In this document: positions 2,856 to 20,289 of the stretch, piece by piece | How the letters are laid out: each line of letters opens with the position of its first letter | How positions within the stretch are numbered: the first letter of the stretch is position 1 | Assembly: GCA_016938675.1 (NCBI GenBank) | Contig: JAFGUF010000045.1 | Span: 14,450-78,449, forward strand | Length of the DNA stretch: 64,000 nucleotides | From: Clostridia bacterium | GTDB taxonomy: Bacteria > Bacillota > Clostridia > Christensenellales > UMGS416 | Reading direction: 5' to 3' | Program-made: the position numbers and the translations under genes | The notes under the pieces: model-generated | Databases searched by the model: none | The model's input: the letters and a program-made list of their open reading frames with translations, nothing else | Told to the model about the DNA's origin: nothing

Positions 2856-3128
2856 ATGTCCCAGTTACTCGAGGCCCTAATGGTGATATGCTTCGGCATT
2901 TCATGGCCGTTTTCAATTATTAAATCTATCCGATCAAAAACCGCAAAGGGCAAAAGCCTGTTTTTTATGTCATTCGTTCTTGCAGGGTATGCTTTCGGAA
3001 TAGTAAGCAAATTAGCAAGCGACAACATAACATATGTACTCTTTTTCTATATGCTGAATTTCGTGATGGTAGGTGCAGATATAGCACTATATTTTGTAAA
3101 TTCAAAAAGGGATAAATCAGAGGCTTAA
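2856..3128 (+). CDS. Small three-helix membrane protein (PQ-loop / SemiSWEET-like, tentative)
   Basis: The RBS gaggtg lies 5 nt before the ATG at 2856. The product is 90 aa with three hydrophobic helices. ISWPFSIIKSIRSKTAKGKS resembles a PQ-loop type motif. Confidence 0.45.
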   Translation: MSQLLEALMVICFGISWPFSIIKSIRSKTAKGKSLFFMSFVLAGYAFGIVSKLASDNITYVLFFYMLNFVMVGADIALYFVNSKRDKSEA

Positions 3129-4042
3129 ATTTTATTGCCTGCAGTAAATATTACGAGATATTGCCTACGGTCATCAAATGGCCAGATGCAGTACCTTTCG
3201 CTAGTAATATCTAGGCTTTGCTTTATGTTATCCAGCCCCAGCAAAGCAAGCTCGGAATAATTTTCTTTTAAGTAATCCTTAATATATTGCTTGTTTTCAA
3301 TGCTCTCTTTCATGCGCTCCGCCAAGCTAAAATCTGTTATTTCCAGAATATCTGTAAGTACAATTACTTTTCCTCCGCTTTTTACCTTTGATAAGATCAG
3401 TTTATTATATCTCTCTATTATTGCAGGCATAATATTATACATTTCATTCAATATTCCGTTTAGTGCATCCAATGGATAAATACCGTAATCATATAGTATC
3501 CTTAAAAGAGCTTCCATCTGCGTGAATGCTATCTGTGTGTAGGTCGGCAGAACGATAACTGTATCGTACGTATCTTTTTTGTACGTCCGTATTTCTATTT
3601 TTTCAAAACTGCTGATAATATTCTTAATATATTTTACTATTTCTTTTTCGTCAGCTTTTCTGCTCGCCATCTTAGAAAGATTCTCAAAAAATCTTGCCTC
3701 TTCGAGGCCGCTGTAGTCCAGCCGCTGTTTTGATAATTTAGCTTCCTTATCTTTATCTAATTGCTGTCTCGTGATGCCATCTGTGATGCTAAATAAATCA
3801 ATGTCGCTAAGTACAACGCTGTCAAATACTGACGCTAAAAAGGCTAGGTCAATATCGTTGCATTCGCCTGCGCCGAAAACAAATAAGGAATTAGTCTCTC
3901 CATTATTTATGTTATCAGAAATAAACCGTGCAACATCAGCCCGATAGGATTGCCACCCGGCATACTTGCTCTGAGGGTTTCCACTGCTATTTACATCTAT
4001 ATTGAATTTTTCAATTGAAAAGTTTTTTATCTTAAAGTCCAT
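3125..4042 (-). CDS. Hypothetical protein with class-I SAM-methyltransferase-like motifs
   Basis: The RBS gaggaa precedes the ATG at 4042 (MDFKIKNF...). LFVFGAGECNDIDL is motif-I-like, VVLSDID supplies the acidic end of beta-2, and DTVIVLPTY and GGKVIVLTD resemble later motifs. The function is not established. Confidence 0.5.
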   Translation of the reverse strand: MDFKIKNFSIEKFNIDVNSSGNPQSKYAGWQSYRADVARFISDNINNGETNSLFVFGAGECNDIDLAFLASVFDSVVLSDIDLFSITDGITRQQLDKDKEAKLSKQRLDYSGLEEARFFENLSKMASRKADEKEIVKYIKNIISSFEKIEIRTYKKDTYDTVIVLPTYTQIAFTQMEALLRILYDYGIYPLDALNGILNEMYNIMPAIIERYNKLILSKVKSGGKVIVLTDILEITDFSLAERMKESIENKQYIKDYLKENYSELALLGLDNIKQSLDITSERYCIWPFDDRRQYLVIFTAGNKI

Positions 4043-4090: not shown

Positions 4091-4119
4091 AAAAGAAAGC
4101 CTGCCTATATGGCAGACTT
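4091..4119 (-). terminator. Terminator closing the Mrp/Nuo-like operon
   Basis: Minus strand reads aagtctgcc-atata-ggcaggctt, a 9-bp stem with one mismatch, followed by tctttttgc. It lies 16 nt after the stop at 4135. Confidence 0.6.
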
Positions 4120-4134
4120 TCCAGCAAATTAATT

Positions 4135-5970
4135 CTAGCTTTTCTTTTTGTTTTTTCTCAAATACTCATCAATGCCTATCGCAGCATCATGCCCATTGGC
4201 TACGCCGTTTATAATATCCATTCCTTTGATGATATCTCCGCCTGCAAACAGCCACGGCACTCCTGCAACCTGTCCGTTTTTGTTCGTCTTTATCTTGCCT
4301 CGCTCTATCTGCATCTGGCTCTGCACTTCATCAGGAATGTAGGTAAAGTCCGGCATCTGTCCGATTGCAAGGTATACCTGATCAGCCTCTAAAACCTGTC
4401 TTGCATCGAAATCAAATTGAGGATTGAACCTGTGGTTTTCATCAAAGAGCTGTGTGCACTCGCAAACCTCCACGCCCTTTACATTTCCTGTTTTTTCATC
4501 CACAACGATTTTCTGCGGGCCGCAGGCGAGGTTGAATTTGATGCCTTCTTCTGTTCCTTCCTCAATTTCCTCAATATCGGCTGGAATCTGCTGCCTGTTT
4601 TCAAGAGCTGCCATCATAACGTCGGATTTGCCGTATTTCATGTTCTGCAGGCGCACAAGCGTCCTTGCAACGTCGAATGCAACGTTTCCTGAGCCGATAA
4701 CTACGACCTTTTCCTTTATTTCTGGCATTTTCGCGCTTCCTCTTTCGAAGTCTGCCGAATCTGCGAGGAACGGCATCGCCATAATTACATCCTTGTTGTC
4801 AACGCCGGGGATATTTAAAGGTCTTGTATCTGGATATCCAGTCGCAATGAACACAGCATCGTGTGTGCTCTTTAATTTATCCATCGTAATGTCTTTCCCG
4901 ACGTCTGTATTCGTGTGTATTTTCACACCGAGCTTCTCTATGAATGAAATATCCCTGTTTGTAATGTCATCCGGCAGCCTGTACTTTGGCGCACCGTATC
5001 TCATCGGGCCGCCTGCCTGAGCCTTTCTTTCGTATACATCTACTTCATAGCCCAATGTGCTGAGGTAATAGGCCGCTGATAGCCCTGCGGAGCCTGAGCC
5101 CACTATGGCCACCTTGCCGTCACCTTTTTTAGATACCTGAGAGAGAACTACCTTTTCGTACTCATCATCGGGCACATTGTCCACGATGTATCGTTTCAGC
5201 CATCTTATTGCTACAGCGTCGCCTCTTTGGGATATGGCGCACGCGCCTTCGCACTTGTGTGTACATATTCTGCCGCACACAGACGGCAGCGGATTCGTTT
5301 TGTATAGGTAGTCAACGCCTTCTGAAAGATTGTCATTCCATACTGACCTGATATATTCCGGTATGTTCATATGTGCGGGGCATGTCTTTGTGCATATTTC
5401 GCATGCAACACACCTTGAAGCCTCTGCAATGGCCTGCTCCTTGGAAAAACCTCTGACTATTTCAATAAATGAGCCTTTTCTCTCGTCCTCGCCGACGTGT
5501 TCCATATGCTTTCTTTCAAGGTCTAGCAAGTCTGATGTCTCATCTTTTACATAGCCTAATTTAATTGGTTTCCCCGTAATGCCCTTTTCAGTAGGCATGT
5601 AGTAGAAGTCCTCAGGGTCTGACGAATTAAGCAGGTATTCCTTTGTAAGGCTTAATGAGCCTGATGTACATATATCTACGCATAGTGCGCAGAAACAGCA
5701 CCTGCCGTAGTCTATTACCGGGCGCTCCGGCTTGGAGCCCTCTTCATCGGCTACATCACTGCGCTCTACCATGGTTATAGCATTGGTCGGGCACACTTCA
5801 GAGCATGTGCCGCATCCTATGCACTTTGCCCAGTCGTTTATGTGGAAGCCCCTGTAATTGTCCTGTGATTCTCTGGGATTCTTGAATATATCATCCATAG
5901 CCACAGTAACAGGCTTTTTAAATAAGTATTTCCAGCCCTTGAAAGGCGCTAAAATGCTCTTTTTATCCAT
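4135..5970 (-). CDS. Fusion protein: NuoI/MbxN-type 2x[4Fe-4S] ferredoxin module + GltD/NfnB/SudA-type FeS-FAD-NAD(P)H oxidoreductase
   Basis: The N-terminal ~115 aa contain CIGCGTCSEVCP and CCFCALCVDICT, and the N-terminus looks NuoI-like (KGWKYLFKKPVT). GltD-type Cys clusters follow (RCVACEICTKTCP and CGRICTHKCEGAC). Two dinucleotide folds are present (VAIVGSGSAGLSAAYYL and VVVIGSGNVAFDVA), along with a C-terminal AGGD motif. Confidence 0.8.
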   Translation of the reverse strand: MDKKSILAPFKGWKYLFKKPVTVAMDDIFKNPRESQDNYRGFHINDWAKCIGCGTCSEVCPTNAITMVERSDVADEEGSKPERPVIDYGRCCFCALCVDICTSGSLSLTKEYLLNSSDPEDFYYMPTEKGITGKPIKLGYVKDETSDLLDLERKHMEHVGEDERKGSFIEIVRGFSKEQAIAEASRCVACEICTKTCPAHMNIPEYIRSVWNDNLSEGVDYLYKTNPLPSVCGRICTHKCEGACAISQRGDAVAIRWLKRYIVDNVPDDEYEKVVLSQVSKKGDGKVAIVGSGSAGLSAAYYLSTLGYEVDVYERKAQAGGPMRYGAPKYRLPDDITNRDISFIEKLGVKIHTNTDVGKDITMDKLKSTHDAVFIATGYPDTRPLNIPGVDNKDVIMAMPFLADSADFERGSAKMPEIKEKVVVIGSGNVAFDVARTLVRLQNMKYGKSDVMMAALENRQQIPADIEEIEEGTEEGIKFNLACGPQKIVVDEKTGNVKGVEVCECTQLFDENHRFNPQFDFDARQVLEADQVYLAIGQMPDFTYIPDEVQSQMQIERGKIKTNKNGQVAGVPWLFAGGDIIKGMDIINGVANGHDAAIGIDEYLRKNKKKS

Positions 5971-5984
5971 ATTCTAAATCCCTC

Positions 5985-7091
5985 CTATCTGTCGATTTCC
6001 GGCGAGCAGATGCCCATCGTGTCAAACCAGAGCGGTGCGTCGTCAATTCTGTGCCCCGGCATGTATTTCTCAACGCCCAATAGCCCTTGCGGGAATGATG
6101 CTCCTCGCACCGCTACCCTGTATGGCATTGTGTTTCCGTCAGATACGGTGTAGTATCCGTATTCACCGCGGCTTGCTTCCACTGCGCTGTATACCTGTCC
6201 TGCAGGGACACGCCACCTTAGTGCGCTGCCGTCTGCTACTTTGGCTCTTACTTTGCCGCCCGGCATCATGTCAATAGCCTGCTTGATTATGTTTATGCTC
6301 TGGTACATCTCCTGATACTTAAGTGTCATTCTGGTCTGTGCGTCCGAATATGTAGCTGTCGGCACCTTGAAGTCAACTTTTTCGTATCTTGCGTACGGAG
6401 CCACTTTTCTTATGTCGTATTCCTGTCCGGTTGCTGACCTCATGCCTATTCCGGTTACGCCCAGCTCCCATACAACCTCTGCAGGTAGCAGAATGTTGTC
6501 AACCGTACGTGCGCGGACTGTTGGATTGTTCAATACCAGGTCTTCGTATTCAGGCAGCCTGCTTTCAAGGTCATTCAAAAAGTCGAGTATTTTGTTTTCA
6601 ATTCCTTTTGGCAGATCCTTGCGAACTCCGCCTGCCACTATATACATGTGGTATACTCTATGGCCTGTAATTTCTTCAAATATTGTGAGTATGCGGTCTC
6701 TGTCGGCCTGTGCCCAGTACATTGCAGTGTAGAGCCCTGTAGGGCCTCCTATTCCGCCAAATGCCATAAGGTGAGCAGAAAGCCTTGCAAGCTCTAATAT
6801 TATCATGCGAATCCAGTGGGCACGCTCCGGCACCTTTATCTTGGCCAGTGCTTCAATATTCATGGCATAGACCATTTCGTTTGTGTCCGGTTCAGGCACG
6901 CATATCCTTGGGATGAGGGCGATGTTGTTCATCCATGTGCGCCTCTCCATAGATTTTTCGAATCCCCTGTGAAGCATTCCCGGCAATAGGTAAGACCTTT
7001 TGATTATGTCACCTTCCACATACATATGGACACTGGCGTTTCCGTGCATTCCCGGGTGCTGAGGGCCTAAGAATAATTTTATCTCTTTCAT
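5985..7091 (-). CDS. NuoD / group-4 [NiFe]-hydrogenase large-subunit homolog lacking two of the four Ni-Fe cysteines (Mbx/Mbs-L-like)
   Basis: GPQHPGMHG and LHRGFEK are NuoD/HycE signatures. The N-terminal motif reads RICVPE (C64..E67) instead of RxCGxC. The C-terminal motif reads ICSPEIDR (C362..E365) instead of PCxxCxDR. Confidence 0.85.
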   Translation of the reverse strand: MKEIKLFLGPQHPGMHGNASVHMYVEGDIIKRSYLLPGMLHRGFEKSMERRTWMNNIALIPRICVPEPDTNEMVYAMNIEALAKIKVPERAHWIRMIILELARLSAHLMAFGGIGGPTGLYTAMYWAQADRDRILTIFEEITGHRVYHMYIVAGGVRKDLPKGIENKILDFLNDLESRLPEYEDLVLNNPTVRARTVDNILLPAEVVWELGVTGIGMRSATGQEYDIRKVAPYARYEKVDFKVPTATYSDAQTRMTLKYQEMYQSINIIKQAIDMMPGGKVRAKVADGSALRWRVPAGQVYSAVEASRGEYGYYTVSDGNTMPYRVAVRGASFPQGLLGVEKYMPGHRIDDAPLWFDTMGICSPEIDR

Positions 7092-7612
7092 TTCTTATCA
7101 CCTGCCTTGCTGAAGTCTGCAGCATACTCCCTAACCGGATATTTCCTGTCGGAATAGGCCTTTGAATCAAAGTCCTTGCGCAGCGGTGGCATATCGTCCC
7201 AATTTTCAAGAAAGAGCTGCTTATATGAATCCGGGTTGCCTTCAAACTCCACTCCGAAAAATTCGTGAACGTCTCTTTCGTAGTATTTCGCTCCGGGATA
7301 TATGCTGGTGACTGTTGTAAATTTCGGGTTAGACCTGTCTATTCTTGTGCGCACCTGCAGCCTTATGCCTGTCTCCCAGTTAAATACTATGTACACCAGC
7401 TGGAATTGGTTGTCCTTAATCCAGTCTACGCAGGAAAGGATAGACAGCTGCCTGAAGCCCTGCGACTTAACATATGCCAGAACAGAATGAATATCTCTCG
7501 AATTAAAATCCAATGCTGCCTGGTCATCTTTAGGGTAATCTTCGCCCACAAGCTCAAACCTTGATTTAATATCTGCAACTAAATTTTTAATATCTTTATT
7601 CATGGAACTCAT
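7088..7612 (-). CDS. NuoC (30-kDa subunit)-like
   Basis: YERDVHEFFGVEFEGNPD matches the NuoC ERE..DmfGi.F.gHP signature. The gene overlaps both neighbours. Confidence 0.85.
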   Translation of the reverse strand: MSSMNKDIKNLVADIKSRFELVGEDYPKDDQAALDFNSRDIHSVLAYVKSQGFRQLSILSCVDWIKDNQFQLVYIVFNWETGIRLQVRTRIDRSNPKFTTVTSIYPGAKYYERDVHEFFGVEFEGNPDSYKQLFLENWDDMPPLRKDFDSKAYSDRKYPVREYAADFSKAGDKK

Positions 7613-8156
7613 CCTTTATCCGCAATTCTCCAAGGGCCTGTATCTGGTTTTTTCTGTACCAGTCCTTGTTTTGCTCGTACTTTTTCCATCCGTTTGCTTC
7701 CTTGCGCTTAATCATGCCGATAAGGTCGTTGAAGCCGTTCATTACAGCCTCTGGCTTTGGCATGCAGCCTGCTATATAAACATCTATTGGAAGATACTGA
7801 TCCAGCCTGTTTATTACGGCATGAGAATCGTAGTATATTCCTCCGTTTAATGTGCATGGCCCGAAAGCAACCAGATATTTCGGAGTTGACATCTGTTCAT
7901 AGGCGTATATTATGCGCCTTAAGGTTTTAAGGCTTAGATATCCTGTAATTAGTAAAACGTCTGCCTGCCTAGGGGTGGCCATCGGGCCCATGCCCAGACG
8001 CTCCATATCATACCTAGATGTCATTGCCTGAGGCAGCTCTATTGCGCAGCAGCCTGTGCAGTACATCAGCATCCATATGGAATTTGCTCTGAAAAACCTG
8101 GAGATTCCATCCCAGCCTTTTCTTATGTTTTCTTGTTTTTCTACGGTATTATCCAT
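7596..8156 (-). CDS. NuoB (PSST) / hydrogenase small-subunit-like, [4Fe-4S] N2-type
   Basis: It contains CTGCCAIE, DVLLITG, GPCTLNGG and YIAGCMPKPEA, which together supply all four cluster cysteines. Confidence 0.9.
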   Translation of the reverse strand: MDNTVEKQENIRKGWDGISRFFRANSIWMLMYCTGCCAIELPQAMTSRYDMERLGMGPMATPRQADVLLITGYLSLKTLRRIIYAYEQMSTPKYLVAFGPCTLNGGIYYDSHAVINRLDQYLPIDVYIAGCMPKPEAVMNGFNDLIGMIKRKEANGWKKYEQNKDWYRKNQIQALGELRIKDEFHE

Positions 8157-8159
8157 GTA

Positions 8160-9065
8160 TTATACCCCCCATCCTAGAAATACTACCATCAGAGCCTGAA
8201 CTATGGCCAGTGTAATTGGCACCTTATAGTAGAATTTGATTACTTGATCAATCTTGAATCTCGCCAGAGCGTTCGATATAAGGCTGGCTAAGATATATAC
8301 TACAAAGTATTTAGCAATAAAGCCAAATAGTGTTGTCGCGCCGCCCAAAAACAGAGTTACAAATAACGTAACTTCTATAAATGTAGCGAATTCGTGCATT
8401 ATCATAAGCATTCCCAGCTGCTTGCCGCCATATTCAACCATTGGGCCTGAGGCAATCTCCGCAGGAGCTATAAATGTCTCAAACGGCTTTTTGCCTAGCA
8501 TTCCAAGCAGCGAGATATAGGCAACTACTGTACCAATAGGCATCTTTACTAAGTTCCAAGTCATGATGCCTGATGCCTGCTGTATGGCAGCCAGCTCTGA
8601 AAGAGAACTCGTATTATGGCCGAATATTATTCCTAGGATAACTATCATAAATGGCACTTCATAGCCTACCATCTGTGTCAGGGCGCGCATAACGCCGATT
8701 CCCGCAAGAGGATTTCCTGATCCTACGGAGCTCATTGCCATGCCCAGCATTCCTACTGCCAGCAGATAAACAAAGATAAAGAAGTTGTCCATTCCGGGGA
8801 ATGCCGAGTAGCCTACTACCGGCAGGAACATAACTGTTGCCATAATGCCGCCTAATGCCATCATTACGCCAAAGTCAAATACCCATCCGTGAGTTACACC
8901 TGTTTTGCTTAATGCCTTGAAGATATCTCTGAATTGCTGGTACCATTTTGGCCCAATCCTCTTTTGGAATCTTCCGACAATTTTTCTGTTTATTCCGTCA
9001 AGTGATGTCTGCCACACAAAGGCAAACAACAATATCCCGAATCCTGTTAATATCCCTGTAATCAT
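8160..9065 (-). CDS. NuoH / HyfC / MbhM-like membrane subunit
   Basis: It is polytopic. NRKIVGRFQKRIGPKWYQ matches the NuoH ER..g..Q.R.GP signature. The start at 9065 forms an ATGA overlap with the upstream stop, so the tracked ORF is 12 codons too long. Confidence 0.85.
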   Translation of the reverse strand: MITGILTGFGILLFAFVWQTSLDGINRKIVGRFQKRIGPKWYQQFRDIFKALSKTGVTHGWVFDFGVMMALGGIMATVMFLPVVGYSAFPGMDNFFIFVYLLAVGMLGMAMSSVGSGNPLAGIGVMRALTQMVGYEVPFMIVILGIIFGHNTSSLSELAAIQQASGIMTWNLVKMPIGTVVAYISLLGMLGKKPFETFIAPAEIASGPMVEYGGKQLGMLMIMHEFATFIEVTLFVTLFLGGATTLFGFIAKYFVVYILASLISNALARFKIDQVIKFYYKVPITLAIVQALMVVFLGWGV

Positions 9066-10909
9066 AAGCTGCCTCCCCACAATAGAGCTATTACCGCGCA
9101 AACCATCCAGAACACTATAATCCGCGGCTTATTGTTGAAGAATGTGTAGCTTACCAATTGTCCTGCTTCCTCAATCTTCTTTATAAGCGCTGCGTACCAC
9201 TTTTCTGTTGAAGGAGCATTCTCATACAGCCTTTCAAACGGAGCGTAGAAAGCATATGAGTAATGCAGAAGTTCCGGGGTGTATATAAACTCTGAAGCTG
9301 TGTATGTGTCCATCAAGTCTACTTTTCTTGATTTCGGATGGATTATGAAAATTATCAAAGCGATAAAGAAACCTATTCCGAAGATCAATGAAACCAATGA
9401 AGGGTTGAGTTGTCCGTTAGTTCCCGATATTACGAGCCCGTTAAGTGTAAGTCCGTCAAGCCCTGCTGTCTTTAATATATCACTGATGAATCTAAGCACT
9501 ATATTAGGGAATACTCCGAATAATAATGTCAGCAGAGAAAGGCCTATCATCGGCACCTGCATAAGGAACGGAGCTTCCTTCACGCTTTCATGCTTCGGCG
9601 AAAGCTGACCCAAAAATACTGCGCTCAAAGGCCTGAATACATAAAGGAACGAACCAATGCTTCCGAAGAATGCTGCAGCTGCAGTAAATACCATTCCCTT
9701 TCCTATCATTGACTGAAAGAGCATCCACTTGGATATAAACCCGCTCATTGGCGGAATGCCTGCCATTGATATGATTGCTATCAGGTAGACAAGGTATGTG
9801 AGGGGCATTCTGTGAATAAGTCCGCCCAGCTCGCTCATCTTGGTTGTTCCTGTTCTGTGCACCACAGCAGCTGCTGACAAAAACGCCGCTGCCGAAGCCA
9901 GAGCGTGAGCGAACATATGCATAAACGCTCCGCCTACGCTTAGTGAGTCAGCAATCGCTATTCCTATTATTATGTATCCGCCGTTTGCAACGGATGAATA
10001 GGCAATCAGTTTTTTAAAGTCTTCTGATTTTATGGCCATCAGTGTTCCTACTACTATACTTACAGCTCCCAGGAACACCAGAATATAGTTAGGTACAGGC
10101 ATTGCAAGCTCTCTGCCTAAAAACAGCGCATTAGAAGCAAACACCTTATAGGAGGGCATCACTATTACTGCAAGAAATGCCGCGAATCCGCCTGCCTTTA
10201 CCAATCCGCCTGAAAGTATCGGCGAGAATGTATCCGGAGCGTTGCCGTGCGCTTTAGGAAGCCACAGATGGAACGGAAATACGCCTATTTTCACAAGCCC
10301 CGCTATACCTATTGTTATGAACGCTACCAGCGCATATGTCGTGTTCATTGACGCCTGCTCAAGAACATACTGAATATCAAATGAACCTGTCTTTGAGTAA
10401 AGATACAGTATGCCAAAGAGCATGCTTAACGATCCGAATGCACTGAACGCGTAGTAGACAACGGATGCATTTCTGGATTTTCCGAATGGGATAATAAACA
10501 TTGAAGCCCACACTATTGTTTCCCAGAAAATGAACAGTCCAATAAAGTCCTTCGCTGTAAAAGCGCCTACCGTGCCTGCCAGTGCAACCAGGTAGAGAAA
10601 GTTATATGCCGCCGGATGAATAATCTTCTTCATCCAATACAGATTGAAAAATGACACGCTGAAAAATATAAGCAGCATCAGAACGGAGAAAAACCATCCG
10701 TAGTCTGTAAGCTTAAAGCCTAGAGCCCCAAGGCTCTGTACGCTGTTTATATCGCCTTTAAGCATAAGCATCGCAGCCAGAGCGGCGCCGGAGCCTAATA
10801 CTGTAATCAGTGCGCCCAGAATTTTATTTGCCTTAGTTAGCAAATATGCCAGCACAGCAGCCGCAAACAGGCCAACTACTATTGCCGGAACGCTTAAAAT
10901 AAAATCCAT
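9062..10909 (-). CDS. MrpA/MrpD / NuoL-type antiporter-like subunit (second copy, MbxH'-like)
   Basis: 615 aa and polytopic. It carries the proton-antiporter signature FHLWLPKAHGNAPDTFSPILSGGLVKAG. Confidence 0.85.
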   Translation of the reverse strand: MDFILSVPAIVVGLFAAAVLAYLLTKANKILGALITVLGSGAALAAMLMLKGDINSVQSLGALGFKLTDYGWFFSVLMLLIFFSVSFFNLYWMKKIIHPAAYNFLYLVALAGTVGAFTAKDFIGLFIFWETIVWASMFIIPFGKSRNASVVYYAFSAFGSLSMLFGILYLYSKTGSFDIQYVLEQASMNTTYALVAFITIGIAGLVKIGVFPFHLWLPKAHGNAPDTFSPILSGGLVKAGGFAAFLAVIVMPSYKVFASNALFLGRELAMPVPNYILVFLGAVSIVVGTLMAIKSEDFKKLIAYSSVANGGYIIIGIAIADSLSVGGAFMHMFAHALASAAAFLSAAAVVHRTGTTKMSELGGLIHRMPLTYLVYLIAIISMAGIPPMSGFISKWMLFQSMIGKGMVFTAAAAFFGSIGSFLYVFRPLSAVFLGQLSPKHESVKEAPFLMQVPMIGLSLLTLLFGVFPNIVLRFISDILKTAGLDGLTLNGLVISGTNGQLNPSLVSLIFGIGFFIALIIFIIHPKSRKVDLMDTYTASEFIYTPELLHYSYAFYAPFERLYENAPSTEKWYAALIKKIEEAGQLVSYTFFNNKPRIIVFWMVCAVIALLWGGSL

Positions 10910-12355
10910 TTAAACACCTCCTAAGCCGTCTGTCAGAAATGATAATATATCAAAGTTAAACCAATCGTTCATCTGAAGCAGAGGCAGAATACCTGCTGCT
11001 ACTATGGCAATTGCCGCAATAGTAATTATGATTGTAAGCCTTACCTTATTAGTAAGCTTATATTGCTTTGCGTCCTCTGCCTTTGCTAGTTCGCCCTCTT
11101 CACCTGTGTTCCAGAGAGTTGTGAGCATCCTTACCACATATGCTCCCTCTATTACGCTAACAATTAATATAACCATTGGAAGCCATATATTGTTTGCTTC
11201 GAAAAGCGAAACCAGAACATTAGCTTTTGCTATAAATCCGAAAAACAAAGGAAGGCCTATAAGTGACATGGCAGCCGCTGTGAAGCCGAAGCCCAGCACT
11301 TTGTTTTTAAGAAATACTCCTTTTAGATCCTCCAGCTTGTCTGTTCCGTTGTCTTCACCTATCTTAGCAGCCAATGTAAAGAGAATCATCTTTGATATTA
11401 CGTTGTTTATTAATACCAGCAGTGCAGCGGATTTTAGCCCCTGAAGGAAAAGCGCAACAACCAGCCCTGACTGAGCTATGCTTGAAAATAAAAGTATTTC
11501 CCTTAGGTTTTTCTTTGAAAATGCCGCTATCTCCGCCAATATCAATGTGCCTACTGTAACCACCGTAAAGACAATCAGCAGAGAGTCACTCATAACAAAC
11601 AGCGAATCTATAAGCCTGCCGAAAGCAAGAAGCACTGCTGCTGAAAATGCGGAAACAATAAGTGTTCCTACAAGAGAATTCGAATCCTTAAGGACTCCTC
11701 TTGCCCATCCGCTGAAAGGCAGAAGCTTCGCCTCAACTGACAGACCTGTAAAAATCAATGCCAGAGGAAGAACCAGCGCACCGGCCACAGGATAAGAAAT
11801 AATTGCCATCCTGTTCTGAATGTCCATTATGTTAAGTGAACCGAACATATTGTATATTACCGCTATGCCGAAAAGCAGAAGACCTGAGCCCAATGTTCCC
11901 AGCACAAGATAATTGAATGTATACTTGATGTTTTTGTTCATTGTAGTCAGGATATAGGCCGCTATAGCGGATATCTCCATAAACACAAACAAATTAAATA
12001 AGTCGCCTGTTAATATGACTCCGTTAAGCGCTGCCAGCGCTACTGACAAAACCACTTCATACTTTTTGATGTACTTGCATGCCATTATTGCAATGAGTGC
12101 AAATACTACATTAAGAAGAAGTATTCCCAGCAATGAATATTCATCCAGCACCAGGCTGATGCCATATGGCGGCTTGAATCCGCCTATTTCATATATAACA
12201 GGAGATACGTAGTCATAGGCTAGTATGCCGCTTGCCGCAAGGTTAAATCCTATTGCAGCACCCAGAAAATACTTGCCGAGTTTTTTAACCAGCACTGATA
12301 AAAACGCTGCGCCTAATGGTACGGCTATTAATAATATAATAAAGCTTGTATTCAT
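10910..12355 (-). CDS. MrpD / NuoN-type antiporter-like subunit (MbxH-like)
   Basis: Polytopic. The start MNTSFIILLIAVPLG at 12355 lies one nt after the MrpC stop. It is a divergent antiporter-like core (EAKLLPFSGWARGV...). Confidence 0.8.
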   Translation of the reverse strand: MNTSFIILLIAVPLGAAFLSVLVKKLGKYFLGAAIGFNLAASGILAYDYVSPVIYEIGGFKPPYGISLVLDEYSLLGILLLNVVFALIAIMACKYIKKYEVVLSVALAALNGVILTGDLFNLFVFMEISAIAAYILTTMNKNIKYTFNYLVLGTLGSGLLLFGIAVIYNMFGSLNIMDIQNRMAIISYPVAGALVLPLALIFTGLSVEAKLLPFSGWARGVLKDSNSLVGTLIVSAFSAAVLLAFGRLIDSLFVMSDSLLIVFTVVTVGTLILAEIAAFSKKNLREILLFSSIAQSGLVVALFLQGLKSAALLVLINNVISKMILFTLAAKIGEDNGTDKLEDLKGVFLKNKVLGFGFTAAAMSLIGLPLFFGFIAKANVLVSLFEANNIWLPMVILIVSVIEGAYVVRMLTTLWNTGEEGELAKAEDAKQYKLTNKVRLTIIITIAAIAIVAAGILPLLQMNDWFNFDILSFLTDGLGGV

Positions 12356-12356
12356 A

Positions 12357-12692
12357 TTATTTACCTCCCATTTCGTCCATGTCGTATGTTCCGTACTTAT
12401 CATGCATCTTCTTAGCCAATGCAAGAGCCAAAGCTGTCACGCCGACGCCGATTACAATAGATGTAAGCACGAGAGCATGGGGAAGCGGGTCAACATAGAG
12501 CATGGCTGATGATTCGTTATTTGATGTAAGAATAGGCACAAGCCCGTCCTTAACAAATCCTATTGATACAATGAAAAGATTTAATCCTATTTCGAATATG
12601 TTAAGTGCCGCAATCAGCTTAATTACATTTCTCTGGCTTAATAGGCCGTATATGCCTACCAGCATCAGAACGATAGAGAAATATTGTATCAT
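12357..12692 (-). CDS. MrpC / NuoK-like subunit
   Basis: 111 aa with three TM helices. GIYGLLSQRNVIKLIAALNIFEIGLNLF is typical of MnhC/NuoK. Confidence 0.85.
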   Translation of the reverse strand: MIQYFSIVLMLVGIYGLLSQRNVIKLIAALNIFEIGLNLFIVSIGFVKDGLVPILTSNNESSAMLYVDPLPHALVLTSIVIGVGVTALALALAKKMHDKYGTYDMDEMGGK

Positions 12693-13444
12693 CCTTCCAC
12701 CTCCTCTGTAAGAAAGCCGTCAATTACTGATGAGAGCTCACTACCTACTTTAAGTCCGATAAGCATATAGACTATTGGAATAACACCTGAGCTGATAACT
12801 TCGCCGACTGTACCTGTAGGAAGGAAGTTTTGCAGGAAGTATCCCGCAAGCACAATTCCCAAAAGTCCTACAATTACGTATAGACTTCCTGCTGTGCTCT
12901 CTACTGCCTTAGCAGCTGAAAGCTTAACCCTGAATTCATCATCAGATAAATACAAAAGCAGTATTGAAGCCGCGATTATGGCTCCGCCGGGGAAGCCACC
13001 GCCGGGAGTTATGTGCCCGTGTATAAACATATAAACGCCGAAAACTACCATTATACCGAAGATTATCCTTGCACCCTGCTTCAAAATGAAGTTAGGTGCG
13101 TCTTTCAGGTTCTTTCTTTTTCTCTTTCCATTCAGCAGCAGGCCAACACCCAGTGCGGAAACGAAAAGCACAGTAACCTCGCCTAATGTATCAAACGACC
13201 TATAGTTAACAACAACCGATGTAACCATATTTGCAGAGCCGGACTCAGCATTTTGTGTCTCTCCGAATATAATTTCTTCAGTATTGCCGTTTACGCTTTT
13301 ATCAATATACTTTTCGGATACTCTGTCATCTAGGTTTACATTTCCGTATTCATTAAACTTCAATGTTTCATCTGAAAAATAGAGTGCTGAAAAAATAAGA
13401 ATTCCTATGGCAGCAACCAATAAAATAGAAACTATCTGCTTCAT
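12689..13444 (-). CDS. MrpB (MnhB-domain) subunit with N-terminal extension
   Basis: It carries the VVNYRSFDTLGEVTVLF MnhB signature. An ATGA overlap is present at both ends. Confidence 0.8.
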   Translation of the reverse strand: MKQIVSILLVAAIGILIFSALYFSDETLKFNEYGNVNLDDRVSEKYIDKSVNGNTEEIIFGETQNAESGSANMVTSVVVNYRSFDTLGEVTVLFVSALGVGLLLNGKRKRKNLKDAPNFILKQGARIIFGIMVVFGVYMFIHGHITPGGGFPGGAIIAASILLLYLSDDEFRVKLSAAKAVESTAGSLYVIVGLLGIVLAGYFLQNFLPTGTVGEVISSGVIPIVYMLIGLKVGSELSSVIDGFLTEEVEG

Positions 13445-13695
13445 GCCTTGCCACCTGCTTTCTTACCTGCGAAGAGAGTGAACACAAAAAGTGCAGTTAC
13501 AAGCCCTGAGCCTATTACAGCCTCGGTTATCGCAACATCAGGAGCTCTCATAATTACAAAGCATACAACAGCAAGCATACTCATCATTGAAAGATAAATA
13601 ACCGTATTGAAAAGCTTCTTAGCATTTAATGCCAATACGCCAAGCACTACCATCAGGCTGCCTGCAACGATTGAAATAATATCTAGTACTGTCAT
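13441..13695 (-). CDS. DUF4040 / MrpA-C-terminal / MbhD-like small membrane subunit
   Basis: 84 aa with three TM helices. It carries the RAPDVAITEAVIGSG signature. Confidence 0.7.
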   Translation of the reverse strand: MTVLDIISIVAGSLMVVLGVLALNAKKLFNTVIYLSMMSMLAVVCFVIMRAPDVAITEAVIGSGLVTALFVFTLFAGKKAGGKA

Positions 13696-14003
13696 TTCAC
13701 TTCACTCCTTTCTTCGCCTTCTTTTTTGTATTGATATGCGCCTTTTTTGTAAGCTGCCCTTGCAAGCACTGATGAGCCTACAGGGTTTGTTATGGCGATA
13801 AAGACGATAATCAAAATCAGCTTAAGCAGCCATTGGGGGTGAACAAAGCCAACACCTAAAATCAATGAGAATGCTCCCAGTGTTGTCGCCTTGGTTCCTG
13901 CCTGTATACGGTTGAATACGTCGGGCATTCTCAGCACGCCGAATCCACCAAGCAGCAGGAAAACCCCGCCTATAACCATCAAAATATTTCCTGCTATAAT
14001 CAT
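13692..14003 (-). CDS. MrpG-like subunit
   Basis: FGVLRMPDVFNRIQAGTKATTLG matches the MnhG signature. Confidence 0.75.
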   Translation of the reverse strand: MIIAGNILMVIGGVFLLLGGFGVLRMPDVFNRIQAGTKATTLGAFSLILGVGFVHPQWLLKLILIIVFIAITNPVGSSVLARAAYKKGAYQYKKEGEERSEVK

Positions 14004-14251
14004 TGTTTCCCCTCCAAAAATCTGGCGAATACAACAGTTTCAAGGAAAGAAAGTATCGCATAAGCCAAAGCTATATCCAGATACAGGCTGCTTTCCAAAA
14101 CCAGAGCAATCATAACTATTGCCGCCGTAATAATAATGTTGAGGGTATCCAGGCCAACCACTCTGTCAAAAGATGAAGGCCCAGCAATCAGCCTGATAAG
14201 AGCAAAGAGAACGCCTAAACCGATAAGAGAAAAAACTATAATATTAATCAC
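14000..14251 (-). CDS. MrpF-like subunit
   Basis: IRLIAGPSSFDRVVGLDTLN matches the MnhF signature. Confidence 0.75.
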   Translation of the reverse strand: MINIIVFSLIGLGVLFALIRLIAGPSSFDRVVGLDTLNIIITAAIVMIALVLESSLYLDIALAYAILSFLETVVFARFLEGKQ

Positions 14252-14733
14252 TTTATAATCCCTCCTAATATCTTATCAAAGTCCTTGGATATTTCCTTCT
14301 TGTACTCTTCTTCAGTGCTTCCTTTTACGTTTACCCAGTGTACCAATACATGTCCGTCCTCAACATCCAGAGAGAGTGTTCCCGGAGTCAGAGTGATGGA
14401 ATTGGCCAGTACTAATTTTCCGAAATCATTTTTGATTTCCGTCGGCACTTTCACAATGCCCGGATTGATAGGCATTTTCGGGCTTAGTACCCGGTATGCC
14501 ATGTCCAGATTGGCAATTACAAGCTTATAGATAAATACAGGTATGTATACAAATACAAACTTTAATGCTCCTAATACTATTGAAAAGCCGAAGGAATAGT
14601 TGACATACTTGGATACAATAAAAGCAAGGATTAAAGCAACTGCACCACCAAGGATAATCTCAGTTACATTGAATCCGGCAATCAGTATCCATATTGCCCA
14701 TAGAGCTAAAAATGTCGATATGCCTTTTTTCAT
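14248..14733 (-). CDS. MrpE-like subunit
   Basis: It carries the LANSITLTPGTLSLDVE MnhE signature. The start MKKGIS at 14733 is preceded by the RBS aaggaagggga. Confidence 0.75.
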   Translation of the reverse strand: MKKGISTFLALWAIWILIAGFNVTEIILGGAVALILAFIVSKYVNYSFGFSIVLGALKFVFVYIPVFIYKLVIANLDMAYRVLSPKMPINPGIVKVPTEIKNDFGKLVLANSITLTPGTLSLDVEDGHVLVHWVNVKGSTEEEYKKEISKDFDKILGGIIK

Positions 14734-14794
14734 ATGATCCCCTTCCTTTAAAATAAAATGATGTAATAAGTTCATTATTTTCCGGCGGATAAAA

Positions 14795-15091
14795 TCAATC
14801 TACCAGAACATTAACGATTTTTATTATGCGTTCATTAACCACATAATAGTTTACTTCCAATCCGCTTCTTCTGGCGTCCACAATGCCCGCTGTTCGCAGC
14901 TTAGCAAGGTGCTGAGATATGGTAGACTGCGGAAGATCCAGACAGCTTTGGATTTTGGTCACATTGCATCCTGGTTCATTTATCAGACCGTTTACAATGC
15001 AGAGCCTGATAGGATGGGCAATAGCTTTTAGCATCTCTGCCTTTTCCGTCATCTGCTCTAGTTTTTCCTTTGCGTTAATTATAGTTATCAC
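14795..15091 (-). CDS. ArsR/SmtB-family transcriptional regulator
   Basis: The winged helix-turn-helix reads AIAHPIRLCIVNGL...QSTISQHLAKLRTAGIV. Cys residues are at 31, 42 and 50, with no canonical CVC metal site. The start is ambiguous: either the GTG at 15091, which sits inside a gaggtg string, or the ATG at 15052. Confidence 0.85.
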   Translation of the reverse strand: MITIINAKEKLEQMTEKAEMLKAIAHPIRLCIVNGLINEPGCNVTKIQSCLDLPQSTISQHLAKLRTAGIVDARRSGLEVNYYVVNERIIKIVNVLVD

Positions 15092-15106
15092 CTCGCAAAC
15101 ATAATT

Positions 15107-15120
15107 GTTAAATATTTAAC
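15107..15120. promoter_or_regulatory. Perfect 14-bp palindrome in the arsR-like leader
   Basis: GTTAAATATTTAAC equals its own reverse complement. It lies 16 nt upstream of the GTG at 15091. AT-rich palindromes can arise by chance. Confidence 0.3.
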
Positions 15121-15150
15121 GATTTCGAACGTAGAAAAAACGAAAAGTCG

Positions 15151-15176
15151 TATCGTTATATCTATATATTACGATA
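15151..15176. promoter_or_regulatory. 26-bp imperfect palindrome, candidate ArsR-type operator overlapping the -10
   Basis: In tatcgttatatctatatattacgata, 22 of 26 positions are self-complementary. The outer arms TATCGT/ACGATA are perfect. It overlaps the -10 hexamer at 15166-15171. Confidence 0.45.
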
Positions 15177-15194
15177 TAGCGGTTTAAAAGTCAA
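15166..15194 (-). promoter_or_regulatory. SigmaA-type promoter for the ArsR-like gene and probably the whole Mrp/Nuo-like operon
   Basis: Minus strand reads TTGACT, then a 17-nt spacer, then TAATAT. No hairpin terminator is seen between the regulator and the MrpE-like gene. Confidence 0.55.
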
Positions 15195-20281: not shown

Positions 20282-20289
20282 ATTCTCCC

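What the first reader, a model, noticed from the sequence alone, without database searches (positions are those of the whole stretch)
4135..15194. 13-gene Mrp-antiporter + NuoB/C/D/H/I cluster in Mbx/Mbs gene order in a Clostridia-type genome
Seen in the sequence: thirteen co-directional genes lie between a sigmaA-type promoter (15166-15194) and a hairpin/T-run terminator (4091-4119). Seven junctions are ATGA-type overlaps and most of the remaining junctions abut or overlap, which implies one translationally coupled unit. The order is MrpE, MrpF, MrpG, DUF4040/MbhD-like, MrpB, MrpC, two MrpD/NuoL-N-type subunits, NuoH-like, NuoB-like, NuoC-like, NuoD-like and NuoI-like. Established knowledge, recalled from memory and not checked: this is the order of the archaeal mbx/mbs operon (A-B-C-D-F-G-H-H'-M-J-K-L-N). 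That operon has two antiporter-like subunits and places the NuoH homolog before the NuoB homolog, which differs from mbh, ech and nuo operons. Inference: this is an ion-translocating redox complex. It is not complex I, because no NuoA/J/E/F/G are present and the host type normally lacks quinones. It is not a hydrogenase either (see the following entries). Its substrate pair cannot be deduced from sequence.
Basis: partly seen in the sequence, partly recalled or inferred. Interest (0 to 1): 0.75.

Follow-up and report, generated by a model that had tools for sequence, protein, structure and literature searches.

The report
Bacterial Mbx/MBS-type membrane redox complex
This is a real 13-gene operon for a membrane-bound, ion-pumping redox complex of the Mbx/MBS family (a simpler relative of respiratory complex I) with a built-in NAD(H)-binding flavoprotein module; genome surveys already describe this type and it is common in anaerobic bacteria, but nobody has measured its reaction.

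Summary
Thirteen co-directional, tightly packed genes run from 14733 to 4135 on the minus strand in the order MrpE-F-G, MbhD, MnhB, NuoK, two MrpD-type, NuoH, NuoB, NuoC, NuoD, NuoI. Seven junctions overlap by 4 nt, and a strong terminator follows. Two corrections apply. An ArsR-family regulator gene (14795-15091) lies between the proposed promoter and mrpE. The last gene is a 611-aa fusion of a NuoI/MbsN-like di-cluster domain to an NfnB/GltD-like FAD, NAD(P)H and 2x[4Fe-4S] module.

Every subunit tested matches Pyrococcus MBS (PDB 6U8Y) best. The large subunit keeps only the two vestigial cysteines of MbsL and groups with MbsL in 100/100 bootstraps. It is therefore neither a hydrogenase nor complex I.

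The same operon, including the fusion, occurs in all 80 closest genome loci. Published genome analyses already describe it for Thermotoga, Mesotoga and Thermoanaerobacter. I found no biochemistry.

My best reading is an ion-translocating oxidoreductase fed by NADH, with a sulfane-sulfur-like acceptor. Ferredoxin:NAD+ oxidoreduction is the main rival. This is a new member of a known kind and of moderate interest. A conserved methyltransferase-fold neighbour is a new lead.

The parts
15166..15194 (-). Promoter-like site TTGACT-17-TAATAT upstream of the regulator gene
   Evidence: matches 9 of 12 positions. Such hits are not enriched over shuffles, so only its position supports it. An 11-nt inverted repeat (15151-15161 / 15166-15176) overlaps the -10 hexamer.
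14795..15091 (-). ArsR/SmtB-family winged-helix regulator (98 aa), probably the first gene of the unit
   Evidence: Pfam HTH_5 5.7e-10. NCBIfam NF033788 1.4e-21. Closest solved structure is PagR, 67 bits. A homologue sits directly upstream of mrpE in 17 Christensenellales/Clostridia-type loci and not in the Izemoplasmatales, Vallitaleaceae or Thermotogaceae loci.
14248..14733 (-). MbxA / MrpE-like membrane subunit
   Evidence: Pfam MNHE 8e-39. Start chosen at the ATG with a strong SD.
14000..14251 (-). MbxB / MrpF-like
   Evidence: Pfam MrpF_PhaF 2e-18. GTGA overlap with the previous gene.
13692..14003 (-). MbxC / MrpG-like
   Evidence: Pfam PhaG_MnhG_YufB 1e-25. ATGA overlap.
13441..13695 (-). 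MbxD / MbhD (DUF4040)-like
   Evidence: Pfam MbhD 3e-17. ATGA overlap.
12689..13444 (-). MbsE-type subunit (MbhE + MnhB domains)
   Evidence: Pfam MnhB 3e-22 and MbhE 7e-9. Best solved match is MBS chain E, 179 bits, against MBH chain F at 50 bits.
12357..12692 (-). MbxG / MrpC / NuoK-like
   Evidence: Pfam Oxidored_q2 2e-20. ATGA overlap.
10910..12355 (-). MbxH, antiporter-like subunit 1 (481 aa)
   Evidence: Pfam Proton_antipo_M 3e-32. Best solved match is MbsH 6u8y_H, 176 bits; next is MrpD at 103 bits.
9062..10909 (-). MbxH', antiporter-like subunit 2 with C-terminal extension (615 aa)
   Evidence: Best solved match is MbsH' 6u8y_X, 248 bits. The alignment runs to residue 607 of 615, so it includes the extension. 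MbsH' E128, K217, K248, H336 and K399 are all conserved. NCBIfam NF006419 scores 670 bits, above its cut-off.
8160..9065 (-). MbxM / NuoH-like membrane anchor
   Evidence: Pfam NADHdh 3e-55. MbsM 6u8y_M (169 bits) is the only solved match at E<=1e-25.
7596..8156 (-). MbxJ / NuoB-like subunit, carrier of the proximal [4Fe-4S]
   Evidence: Best solved match is MbsJ, 213 bits and ungapped; next is NdhK at 128 bits. C33, C36, C101 and C131 correspond to MbsJ C25, C28, C93 and C123. There is an extra C37, giving the motif CTGCC.
7088..7612 (-). MbxK / NuoC-like
   Evidence: Pfam Complex1_30kDa 4e-30. Best solved match is MbsK, 85 bits.
5985..7091 (-). MbxL / NuoD-like large subunit without a NiFe site
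   Evidence: Bit scores: MbsL 286, NDUFS2 229, MbhL 136, HycE 106. It has only two cysteines, C64 and C362, which correspond to MbsL C85 and C385. It forms a clade with MbsL in 100/100 bootstraps.
4135..5970 (-). Fusion of an MbxN (NuoI-like 2x[4Fe-4S]) domain to an NfnB/GltD-like module (2x[4Fe-4S], FAD, NAD(P)H)
   Evidence: Residues 3-121 match MbsN at 102 bits. Residues 162-608 match P. furiosus NfnI large subunit at 250 bits, T. maritima NfnB at 242 and GltD at 195. All 16 cluster cysteines are invariant in 121/121 homologues, and Glu457 is present in 187/190. The two parts form a single frame without a stop in 76 of 77 loci. NCBIfam NF010590 'putative oxidoreductase' matches full length at 911 bits.
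4094..4122 (-). Intrinsic-terminator-like hairpin plus T-run
3125..4042 (-). Candidate accessory gene: 305-aa protein with a class I SAM-methyltransferase fold and no family assignment (membership of the system is uncertain)
   Evidence: No Pfam or NCBIfam hit. AF2 pLDDT 88.7. All top Foldseek PDB hits are SAM methyltransferases. A homologue lies within 600 nt of the operon in 32 of 42 loci that have both flanks, at either end.

Best explanation
The operon encodes a 13-subunit Mbx/MBS-type membrane oxidoreductase.

The membrane arm has nine subunits: MrpE/F/G-, MbhD-, MnhB- and NuoK-like proteins, two MrpD-like proton-channel subunits, and a NuoH-like anchor. The peripheral arm is NuoB/C/D/I-like. 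This much is shown by sequence.

The N subunit is fused to an NfnB/GltD-type flavoprotein. A pyridine nucleotide is therefore wired through FAD and four [4Fe-4S] clusters to the proximal cluster on the J subunit. This wiring is inferred from the domain content and from invariant ligands.

The proposed direction is also inferred. NADH is the electron donor, playing the role that NuoEFG plays in complex I. Electrons end at the J/L/M chamber, where a sulfane-sulfur or disulfide-type acceptor is reduced as in archaeal MBS. That step drives H+/Na+ export through the Mrp-like arm.

An ArsR-type repressor probably controls the unit in this lineage.
For: Architecture and order.

Every subunit tested has its best solved relative in P. 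furiosus MBS 6U8Y, with wide margins:
- L 286 bits
- J 213
- H' 248
- H 176
- M 169
- E 179
- K 85
- N part 102

The L subunit keeps exactly the two vestigial cysteines of MbsL and the RICVPEPD and C-x-P-x-IDR motifs. It clusters with MbsL in 100/100 bootstraps.

The J subunit aligns to MbsJ without a gap and keeps C25, C28, C93 and C123.

The H' channel residues are conserved.

The flavoprotein module is complete and under selection. It has 16 invariant cluster cysteines and both GxGxxG/A motifs. The fusion is present in 76/77 loci.

Glu457 (187/190) replaces the Tyr-Arg-Arg of NADPH-dependent NfnB at the end of the second Rossmann strand. By general Rossmann-fold rules this indicates NADH (inference).

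In complex-I-type machines energy coupling occurs at the NuoB/D/H chamber (PMC7684303, PMC8165549). A nucleotide module attached to the distal end of the cluster chain is positioned like an input module.

Energetics: PMC8165549 gives MBS 42 and MBH 12 kJ/mol per 2e-. This places the sulfur couple about 60 mV above NADH, or roughly 12 kJ/mol. That is as much as MBH conserves.

Physiology: T. maritima mbxA rises 4.4-fold on S0 (PMC9431562). CoADR/NSR-type genes lie next to the operon in 7 loci, and one is in this window.
Against: - No activity of any bacterial member has been measured, so direction and acceptor are inferences.
- The pocket differs from archaeal MBS. The L subunit keeps a His at the position of complex I Nqo4 H38, which MbsL lacks.
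- 63 of 74 J subunits carry an extra Cys (CTGCC versus MbsJ CTGCG). This could complete four-Cys ligation and remove the open iron site proposed to be catalytic in MBS.
- Nothing else in the window signals sulfur respiration. The host is a mesophilic Clostridia MAG.
- Mesotoga mbx is poorly expressed on thiosulfate.
- Published genome papers assign bacterial Mbx a ferredoxin:NAD(P)+ role.
- Thermoanaerobacter clades carry either mbx or Rnf, which fits functional equivalence.
- The AF2 model of the fusion leaves the interdomain linker (residues 145-174) at low confidence. The relative position of the two cluster pairs is therefore not established.
Confidence: 0.4

Rival explanations
1. Ion-translocating ferredoxin:NAD(P)+ oxidoreductase, a functional analogue of Rnf. 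Reduced ferredoxin donates electrons, the fused flavoprotein reduces NAD(P)+, and the free energy drives Na+/H+ export.
For: This is the assignment in the genome literature: PMC4758237, PMC3608648 and bioRxiv 10.1101/322537. Thermoanaerobacter clade 3 has mbx, whereas clades 1 and 2 have Rnf. The ferredoxin to NAD+ span is comparable to that used by Rnf. The N-subunit di-cluster domain that accepts ferredoxin electrons in MBS is retained.
Against: Electrons would pass from ferredoxin through the N clusters to the flavin without reaching the J/L/M chamber. That chamber is the only site known to couple redox chemistry to ion pumping in this superfamily (PMC7684303, PMC8165549). Yet the J and L subunits, their cysteines and the H' channel residues are highly conserved. 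The same role was proposed for archaeal Mbx and was later replaced by direct sulfane reduction. T. maritima, Mesotoga and X. coldseepsis carry both Rnf and this complex.
Confidence: 0.3
2. A minimal NADH:quinone oxidoreductase. This would be a complex-I-like enzyme with a one-polypeptide NADH module that reduces menaquinone in the J/L/M chamber.
For: The L subunit keeps His16 at the position of the quinone-ligating H38 of Nqo4. Most J subunits have the tandem Cys-Cys typical of cluster N2. NCBI's models name the subunits NADH-quinone oxidoreductase. The X. coldseepsis authors read the homologous genes as complex I and report a cytochrome bd oxidase.
Against: The quinone tyrosine (Nqo4 Y87) is replaced by Val in the window, as in MbsL. 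In all 80 loci this position is Val, in the motif R[IV]CV. The L subunit falls outside the NuoD clade in 90/100 bootstraps and with MbsL in 100/100. The tandem Cys is not conserved: 11 of 74 loci have Gly. There are no quinone-biosynthesis genes in the window. From memory and unchecked, several carrier lineages (Thermotogae, Christensenellales) are described as lacking quinones.
Confidence: 0.08
3. A flavin-based electron-bifurcating or confurcating enzyme. The NfnB-type FAD would split or merge electrons between ferredoxin and the membrane-arm acceptor.
For: The nearest solved relatives of the C-terminal module are the bifurcating subunits of NfnAB. The complex could in principle bind both ferredoxin and a nucleotide.
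Against: There is no NfnA-like partner and no second electron exit in the operon. The family has an all-Cys first ligand (C232) where P. furiosus NfnB has Thr, and Leu-Glu where NfnB has its Arg-Arg NADPH site (Tyr-Arg-Arg motif). It therefore departs from NfnB at two functional positions. From memory, all-Cys ligation is the GltD/DPD wire-type pattern.
Confidence: 0.08

Closest known systems
Membrane-bound sulfane reductase MBS (formerly Mbx) of Pyrococcus furiosus, PDB 6U8Y (PMC7684303)
   Same: 13 genes in the same order. Every subunit tested has its best solved match here. The L subunit has the same two vestigial cysteines. The J subunit has the same CxxC spacing and ligands. H' has the same C-terminal extension and charged residues. 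The L subunits form one clade.
   Different: The N subunit carries an extra 450-residue NfnB/GltD-type NAD(H)-FAD-2x[4Fe-4S] module. L is only 40% identical and keeps the His that MbsL lacks. J usually has an extra Cys. The host is a mesophilic bacterium. The archaeal enzyme uses ferredoxin, and its activity has been measured.
Bacterial 'Mbx' clusters of Thermotogae (T. maritima mbxA THEMA_RS08165 unit, PMC9431562; Mesotoga prima Theba_1796-1808, bioRxiv 10.1101/322537) and the gltD-bearing 'mbx-like' operons described in PMC4758237
   Same: Same family. The L subunit is 71% identical to the protein NCBI names MbxL in Marinitoga. Thermotogaceae loci L028 (partial) and L033 show the same order and the same fusion. 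Petrotoga fusion proteins are 57-58% identical over their full length.
   Different: Different phylum. An ArsR-type regulator gene is attached here and in Christensenellales-type loci only. No member has been characterised biochemically.
13-gene mbx cluster of Thermoanaerobacter clade 3 (PMC3608648)
   Same: A Clostridia-class carrier of a 13-gene mbx-ordered cluster, predicted to be an ion-translocating ferredoxin:NAD(P)+ oxidoreductase.
   Different: I did not compare the sequences directly, because no Thermoanaerobacter locus was among the 80 retrieved. Whether its N subunit is fused is not stated in the passage I read.
Respiratory complex I / NDH-1
   Same: Homologous NuoB/C/D/H/I/K and antiporter-like subunits. 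The nucleotide-oxidising module sits at the distal end of the Fe-S chain. L has a His at the H38 position.
   Different: No NuoA, J, E, F or G. The Mrp small subunits are present. The quinone Tyr is absent. L lies outside the NuoD clade. The NADH module is GltD-type and not NuoF-type.
Group 4 membrane-bound [NiFe] hydrogenases (MBH, Ech, Hyc)
   Same: Shared ancestry and modular build.
   Different: L has 2 cysteines in total, so no NiFe site is possible. MbhL scores 136 bits against 286 for MbsL. There are two antiporter-like subunits, not one.

Membership tests
Mbx/MBS-type (Mrp-Mbx) complex | Thirteen genes in the order A-B-C-D-E-G-H-H'-M-J-K-L-N, with two antiporter-like subunits and the NuoH homologue ahead of the NuoB homologue | tested here: met
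   The order is identical in all 80 related loci as far as each contig extends.
Mbx/MBS-type (Mrp-Mbx) complex | Subunits closer to MBS than to MBH, Mrp or complex I | tested here: met
   Best solved match is 6U8Y for L, J, N part, H', H, M, E and K. The small subunits A, B, C, D and G were checked by Pfam only.
Mbx/MBS-type (Mrp-Mbx) complex | Large subunit retains two of the four NiFe cysteines (MbsL C85, C385) | tested here: met
   C64 and C362 align to C85 and C385 and are invariant in the alignment and in the loci. The protein has only two Cys.
Mbx/MBS-type (Mrp-Mbx) complex | J subunit with the shortened CxxC loop, so that only three Cys ligate the proximal cluster (open Fe site) | tested here: inconclusive
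   The ungapped alignment to MbsJ conserves C25, C28, C93 and C123. The match to MbhJ spans 121 chain residues against 118 query residues, which is consistent with a 3-residue difference but does not localise it. However, an extra adjacent Cys (CTGCC) occurs in 63 of 74 loci. Actual ligation cannot be read from sequence.
Mbx/MBS-type (Mrp-Mbx) complex | H' subunit with the C-terminal TM15-16 and lateral-helix extension | tested here: met
   615 aa aligned to MbsH' up to residue 607.
Mbx/MBS-type (Mrp-Mbx) complex | Stand-alone small N subunit that accepts electrons from ferredoxin | tested here: not met
   N is fused to an NfnB/GltD-type module in this window and in 76 of 77 loci. This defines a bacterial subtype.
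Mbx/MBS-type (Mrp-Mbx) complex | Ferredoxin-dependent polysulfide reduction coupled to ion translocation | not testable with these tools
   Needs enzymology. I found none for bacterial members.
Respiratory complex I (Nuo) | NuoA, NuoJ and the NuoEFG NADH module are present | tested here: not met
   No such genes are in or beside the cluster.
Respiratory complex I (Nuo) | Quinone-binding His and Tyr of NuoD (Nqo4 H38, Y87) | tested here: not met
   The His is present (HPGMHG) but the Tyr is replaced by Val. This comes from the alignment to NDUFS2 and the motif classes. The residue numbering is from PMC7684303 and from memory.
Respiratory complex I (Nuo) | Large subunit inside the NuoD clade | tested here: not met
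   Outside the most recent common ancestor of NuoD-type sequences in 90/100 bootstraps, and with MbsL in 100/100 (NJ tree, not ML).
Group 4 [NiFe] hydrogenase | Four cysteines of the L1/L2 motifs in the large subunit | tested here: not met
   Pattern C-x-x-E ... C-x-x-E. There are two Cys in the whole protein. Pfam NiFeSe_Hases scores only 0.0065.
NfnAB transhydrogenase / GltD family (C-terminal module only) | Fer4_20 domain with two [4Fe-4S] clusters, plus FAD and NAD(P)H Rossmann motifs | tested here: met
NfnAB transhydrogenase / GltD family (C-terminal module only) | NfnA partner subunit and the NADPH-binding Tyr-Arg-Arg motif | tested here: not met
   No NfnA-like gene in the cluster. The motif is Ala-Leu-Glu, with Glu in 187/190 sequences.

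The most novel reading that the evidence does not exclude
The NfnB-fused bacterial Mbx is not a ferredoxin:NAD(P)+ oxidoreductase, as genome papers assume. It is an NADH-driven ion pump, a 'minimal complex I' whose whole NADH module is one fused domain. It reduces a sulfane, disulfide or as yet unknown acceptor. It works with a dedicated, previously unnoticed methyltransferase-fold partner encoded next to the operon in about three quarters of genomes. The parallel, from memory, is NDUFAF7 methylating the NuoD homologue in mitochondria.
Probability: 0.25. Interest if true: 0.7.

Novelty: new member of a known kind. Interest (0 to 1): 0.35.

Why it matters
This complex is widespread in fermentative anaerobes. 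At least 519 species-representative genomes hold a relative of its large subunit. All 80 nearest loci carry the full operon as far as their contigs extend.

It is routinely annotated as 'NADH-quinone oxidoreductase', and at least one paper interprets it as complex I (PMC8397711). Knowing whether it oxidises NADH or makes it, and what it reduces, would change energy-budget models for Thermotogae, Christensenellales, Izemoplasmatales and others. It would also fill the step between MBS and complex I in the evolution of respiratory complexes.

The window itself adds only one more instance. The family-wide features extracted here give concrete, testable predictions:
- the invariant fusion
- Glu at the nucleotide site
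- His retained in the L subunit
- the variable extra Cys in the J subunit
- the conserved methyltransferase-fold neighbour

Tried and rejected
- Hydrogenase reading: rejected, because L has two Cys only and a low MbhL/HycE score.
- Complex I reading: rejected on gene content, the missing Tyr and the tree.
- Nfn-type bifurcation: judged unlikely, because there is no NfnA and the ligand and NADPH-site residues differ.
- Promoter: cannot be validated, because consensus hits are at chance level.
- The palindrome overlapping the -10 box was tested as an ArsR operator by looking for ATCGT...ACGAT upstream of the 17 other ArsR-linked operons. None was found, so this remains unsupported.
- Rfam scan of the whole window: nothing.
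- The AF2 model of the fusion was meant to show packing of the two cluster-binding parts. The linker has low confidence and no coordinates are returned, so this is inconclusive.
- The look-up of encoding contigs for the source contig: nothing on record.
- Literature searches for biochemical characterisation of a bacterial Mbx, and for T. maritima locus tags, found none.
- Wu et al. 2018 (PMC6204914) is not held.
- Schut et al. 2013, the source of the bacterial Mbx assignment, was not sought by id and did not turn up in the searches.
- The tree is neighbour-joining on Kimura distances, not maximum likelihood. Reference labels other than MbsL come from motif classes, not from names.

Full report
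**1. Observation**

The minus strand between 15194 and 4094 holds a compact gene array. ORF listing and Pfam scans give this order:
- MNHE/MrpE (14248-14733)
- MrpF (14000-14251)
- MrpG (13692-14003)
- MbhD/DUF4040 (13441-13695)
- MnhB+MbhE (12689-13444)
- NuoK/MrpC (12357-12692)
- two Proton_antipo_M proteins (10910-12355, 481 aa; 9062-10909, 615 aa)
- NuoH (8160-9065)
- NuoB (7596-8156)
- NuoC (7088-7612)
- NuoD (5985-7091)
- a protein whose N-terminus is NuoI-like (4135-5970)

Junction analysis confirms seven 4-nt overlaps: six ATGA and one GTGA. The other junctions are gaps of 0, 1, 3 and 14 nt and one 17-nt overlap. Each start is preceded by a Shine-Dalgarno-like motif.

The terminator is a 12-bp hairpin with a T-run at 4122-4094, beginning 13 nt after the stop codon.

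Promoter-like hits in the region are at chance level (25 found, 26.9 expected).

Two things were missed:
- A 98-aa ArsR/SmtB-family regulator ORF (14795-15091) lies between that promoter and mrpE, 61 nt upstream of it. The unit is probably 14 genes.
- The last gene encodes 611 aa, of which only about 120 are NuoI-like.

**2. What it is**

I compared each larger subunit with all solved structures. In every case the best match is the corresponding chain of the Pyrococcus furiosus membrane-bound sulfane reductase MBS (6U8Y), by wide margins:

| Subunit | MBS match (bits) | Next best or comparison |
|---|---|---|
| L | 286 | NDUFS2 229, Nqo4 223, NdhH 173, MbhL 136, HycE 106 |
| J | 213, ungapped | NdhK 128 |
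| H' | 248, alignment reaches residue 607 of 615 (includes the C-terminal extension) | MbhH 149 |
| H | 176 | MrpD 103 |
| M | 169 | none at E<=1e-25 |
| E | 179 | MBH chain F 50 |
| K | 85 | 61 |
| N-terminal 120 residues of the last protein | 102 (MbsN) | Nqo9 48 |

The L subunit has only two cysteines in the whole protein.
- They align with MbsL C85 and C385, the two survivors of the four NiFe ligands (PMC7684303).
- They are invariant in homologues.

In H', the residues equivalent to MbsH' E128, K217, K248, H336 and K399 are all conserved.

I searched 1.84 billion representative proteins and built a neighbour-joining tree of 143 L-type sequences.
- The window protein and five bacterial homologues are monophyletic in 100/100 bootstraps.
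- This group sits in a clade that contains MbsL and only 2-Cys sequences in 100/100 bootstraps.
- It lies outside the NuoD-type clade in 90/100 bootstraps.
- The 4-Cys hydrogenases served as outgroup.

**3. The fused module**

Residues 162-608 of the last protein match three groups of solved proteins: the large subunit of P. furiosus NfnI (250 bits), T. maritima NfnB (242 bits) and GltD (195 bits). Pfam finds Fer4_20 and Pyr_redox_2.

Across 121 full-length homologues, all 16 cysteines needed for four [4Fe-4S] clusters are invariant, as are both dinucleotide-binding glycine motifs.

NADPH-dependent NfnB has Tyr-Arg-Arg at the end of the second Rossmann strand. The family has Ala/Ser-Leu-Glu there, with Glu in 187 of 190 sequences. 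By the general rule for Rossmann folds this predicts NADH rather than NADPH. This is an inference.

The first ligand of the flavin-proximal cluster is Cys, where P. furiosus NfnB has Thr. From memory, all-Cys ligation is the pattern of the non-bifurcating GltD/DPD electron wires.

NCBIfam already holds a full-length model for this fusion: NF010590, 'putative oxidoreductase', 911 bits.

An AF2 model folds both parts well, but the linker (145-174) and the N-terminus are at low confidence. It does not settle how the two parts pack.

**4. Distribution**

The L subunit is 100% identical to GenBank MBN2880342.1 from a 'Clostridia bacterium' MAG, where it is named NADH-quinone oxidoreductase subunit D.

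The 80 best are 67-92% identical. By record title they come from:
- Christensenellaceae and Limiplasma (the closest)
- other Clostridia
- Vallitaleaceae
- Peptococcaceae
- Izemoplasmatales and other Mycoplasmatota
- Bacilli
- Thermotogaceae

All 80 show the same gene order as far as each contig extends. In 76 of 77 loci the NuoI-like and NfnB-like parts are one open frame.

Full-length fusion homologues also occur in Petrotoga, Haliovirga and Anaerolineales. NCBI names the Marinitoga homologue of L (71% identical) 'mbxL'.

**5. Literature**

- PMC4758237 (2015) states that in mbx-like operons of Thermotoga and proteobacteria NuoI is replaced by a gltD-related flavoprotein, and reads it as the NAD(P)+ reduction site.
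- PMC3608648 (2013) reports a 13-gene mbx cluster in Thermoanaerobacter clade 3 and Rnf in the other clades.
- The Mesotoga preprint models Mbx as a Na+-exporting NADP:ferredoxin oxidoreductase.
- PMC9431562 shows T. maritima mbxA induced 4.4-fold by S0 and predicts a sulfur reductase.
- PMC8397711 reports 'NADH-quinone oxidoreductase' genes induced up to 20-fold in X. coldseepsis and reads them as complex I. That organism's L homologue is 70% identical to the window's. Whether the induced genes are this cluster was not checked.

I found no enzymology for any bacterial member.

**6. Mechanism**

*Shown:* an MBS-type architecture with five [4Fe-4S] sites, an FAD and a nucleotide site.

*Inferred:* in this superfamily redox energy is converted at the chamber formed by the J, L and M subunits (PMC7684303, PMC8165549). 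A nucleotide module fused to the distal end of the cluster chain is placed like the NADH input module of complex I. I therefore favour this path: NADH to FAD, through four clusters to the proximal cluster, then to an acceptor in the chamber, with H+/Na+ export.

The acceptor is most economically sulfane sulfur or a disulfide, as in MBS. The review gives 42 (MBS) and 12 (MBH) kJ/mol per 2e-. These figures place that couple about 60 mV above NADH, which is as much as MBH conserves.

*Against this reading:*
- L retains a His at the complex I H38 position, which MbsL lacks.
- J usually carries an extra Cys next to the cluster ligand (CTGCC in 63 loci, CTGCG in 11).
- The chamber is therefore not identical to the archaeal one.

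*Main rival:* ferredoxin:NAD+ oxidoreduction. It has the literature behind it, and the Rnf/mbx complementarity in Thermoanaerobacter supports it. It would bypass the coupling site, however, and several carriers have both complexes.

My weights are:
- 0.40 for NADH-driven reduction of a chamber substrate
- 0.30 for ferredoxin:NAD+ oxidoreduction
- 0.08 for NADH:quinone oxidoreduction
- 0.08 for bifurcation or confurcation
- the rest unknown

That it is an Mbx/MBS-type nucleotide-linked ion-translocating complex I hold at about 0.9.

**7. Side finding**

The gene just after the terminator (3125-4042) encodes 305 aa with no Pfam or NCBIfam family.
- Homologues lie within 600 nt of the operon in 32 of 42 loci that have both flanks, sometimes upstream and sometimes downstream.
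- AF2 gives pLDDT 88.7.
- All top Foldseek PDB matches are class I SAM methyltransferases.

Conserved linkage with a variable position suggests a functional partner. From memory, the parallel is NDUFAF7, which methylates the NuoD homologue of mitochondrial complex I. This is a lead, not a result.

**8. Verdict**

This is a new member of a known, uncharacterised bacterial subtype of the Mbx/MBS family. Interest is moderate to low for this instance. The family itself remains an open biochemical problem.

Noticed in passing
window 3125-4042 (-): A 305-aa protein with no family assignment sits directly after the operon terminator. It is predicted with high confidence to have a class I SAM-methyltransferase fold. 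Homologues flank the same operon, at either end, in 32 of 42 loci with both flanks.
   Followed up: partly
window 14795-15091 (-): ArsR/SmtB-family regulator gene between the proposed promoter and mrpE. It has three Cys; the RLC and CNV motifs recur in the one homologue inspected (L029). Its closest solved relative is PagR, and BigR and SqrR are also hit. It is conserved upstream of the operon in 17 Christensenellales/Clostridia-type loci only.
   Followed up: partly
window 15151-15176 and 15103-15124: An 11-nt inverted repeat (TATCGTTATAT / ATATTACGATA) overlaps the -10 hexamer, and a second palindrome lies just before the regulator ORF. These are possible operators. The same core was not found upstream of the regulator in 17 other loci.
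   Followed up: partly
window 43018-44361 (+); loci such as L023 14082-15437: A CoA-disulfide reductase / NSR / NADH-oxidase-type flavoprotein is encoded 28 kb from the operon. Similar genes lie just downstream of the operon in 7 Izemoplasma-type loci. This is a possible link to sulfur or persulfide metabolism.
   Followed up: partly
window 7596-8156 (-), residues 33-37; 74 loci: The J subunit motif is CTGCC in 63 loci and CTGCG (as in archaeal MbsJ) in 11. The extra cysteine creates the tandem Cys-Cys typical of complex I cluster N2 but is not essential to the family.
   Followed up: partly
window 5985-7091 (-), residue 16: The L subunit keeps the HPGMHG histidine at the position of the quinone-ligating His of complex I in 79 of 80 loci. 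Archaeal MbsL lacks it, and the partner tyrosine is Val.
   Followed up: partly
fusion-protein family, positions 456-457 of window 4135-5970: Two of 190 family members have Arg-Lys in place of Leu-Glu at the nucleotide-specificity position. These are possibly NADPH-using variants.
   Followed up: no
public annotation of the window's proteins: GenBank names the L subunit 'NADH-quinone oxidoreductase subunit D', and NCBIfam equivalog models pass their cut-offs for L and H'. A paper on X. coldseepsis, which carries a 70%-identical L homologue, reads induced 'NADH-quinone oxidoreductase' genes as complex I. This looks like systematic mis-naming of the family.
   Followed up: partly
window 17908-21210 (-): nadC, nadB and nadA (de novo NAD biosynthesis) lie about 3 kb from the operon, followed by a lipoate-protein ligase and a radical SAM gene. 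The proximity to an NAD-linked complex may be coincidental.
   Followed up: no
window 23362-31586 (-): Three large genes lie in a row: a 1057-aa protein with no Pfam hit, a 1011-aa HEAT-repeat plus family-2 glycosyltransferase protein, and a 672-aa ODP-metallo-beta-lactamase/GGDEF/receiver protein.
   Followed up: no
locus L003 (contig CAXXYG010000014.1): A MAG labelled Prolixibacteraceae (Bacteroidota) carries the operon with an L subunit 85% identical to this window and with the ArsR gene, nearly the same as in an Anaerofustis-labelled MAG (L004). This suggests a mislabelled bin or a recent transfer.
   Followed up: no
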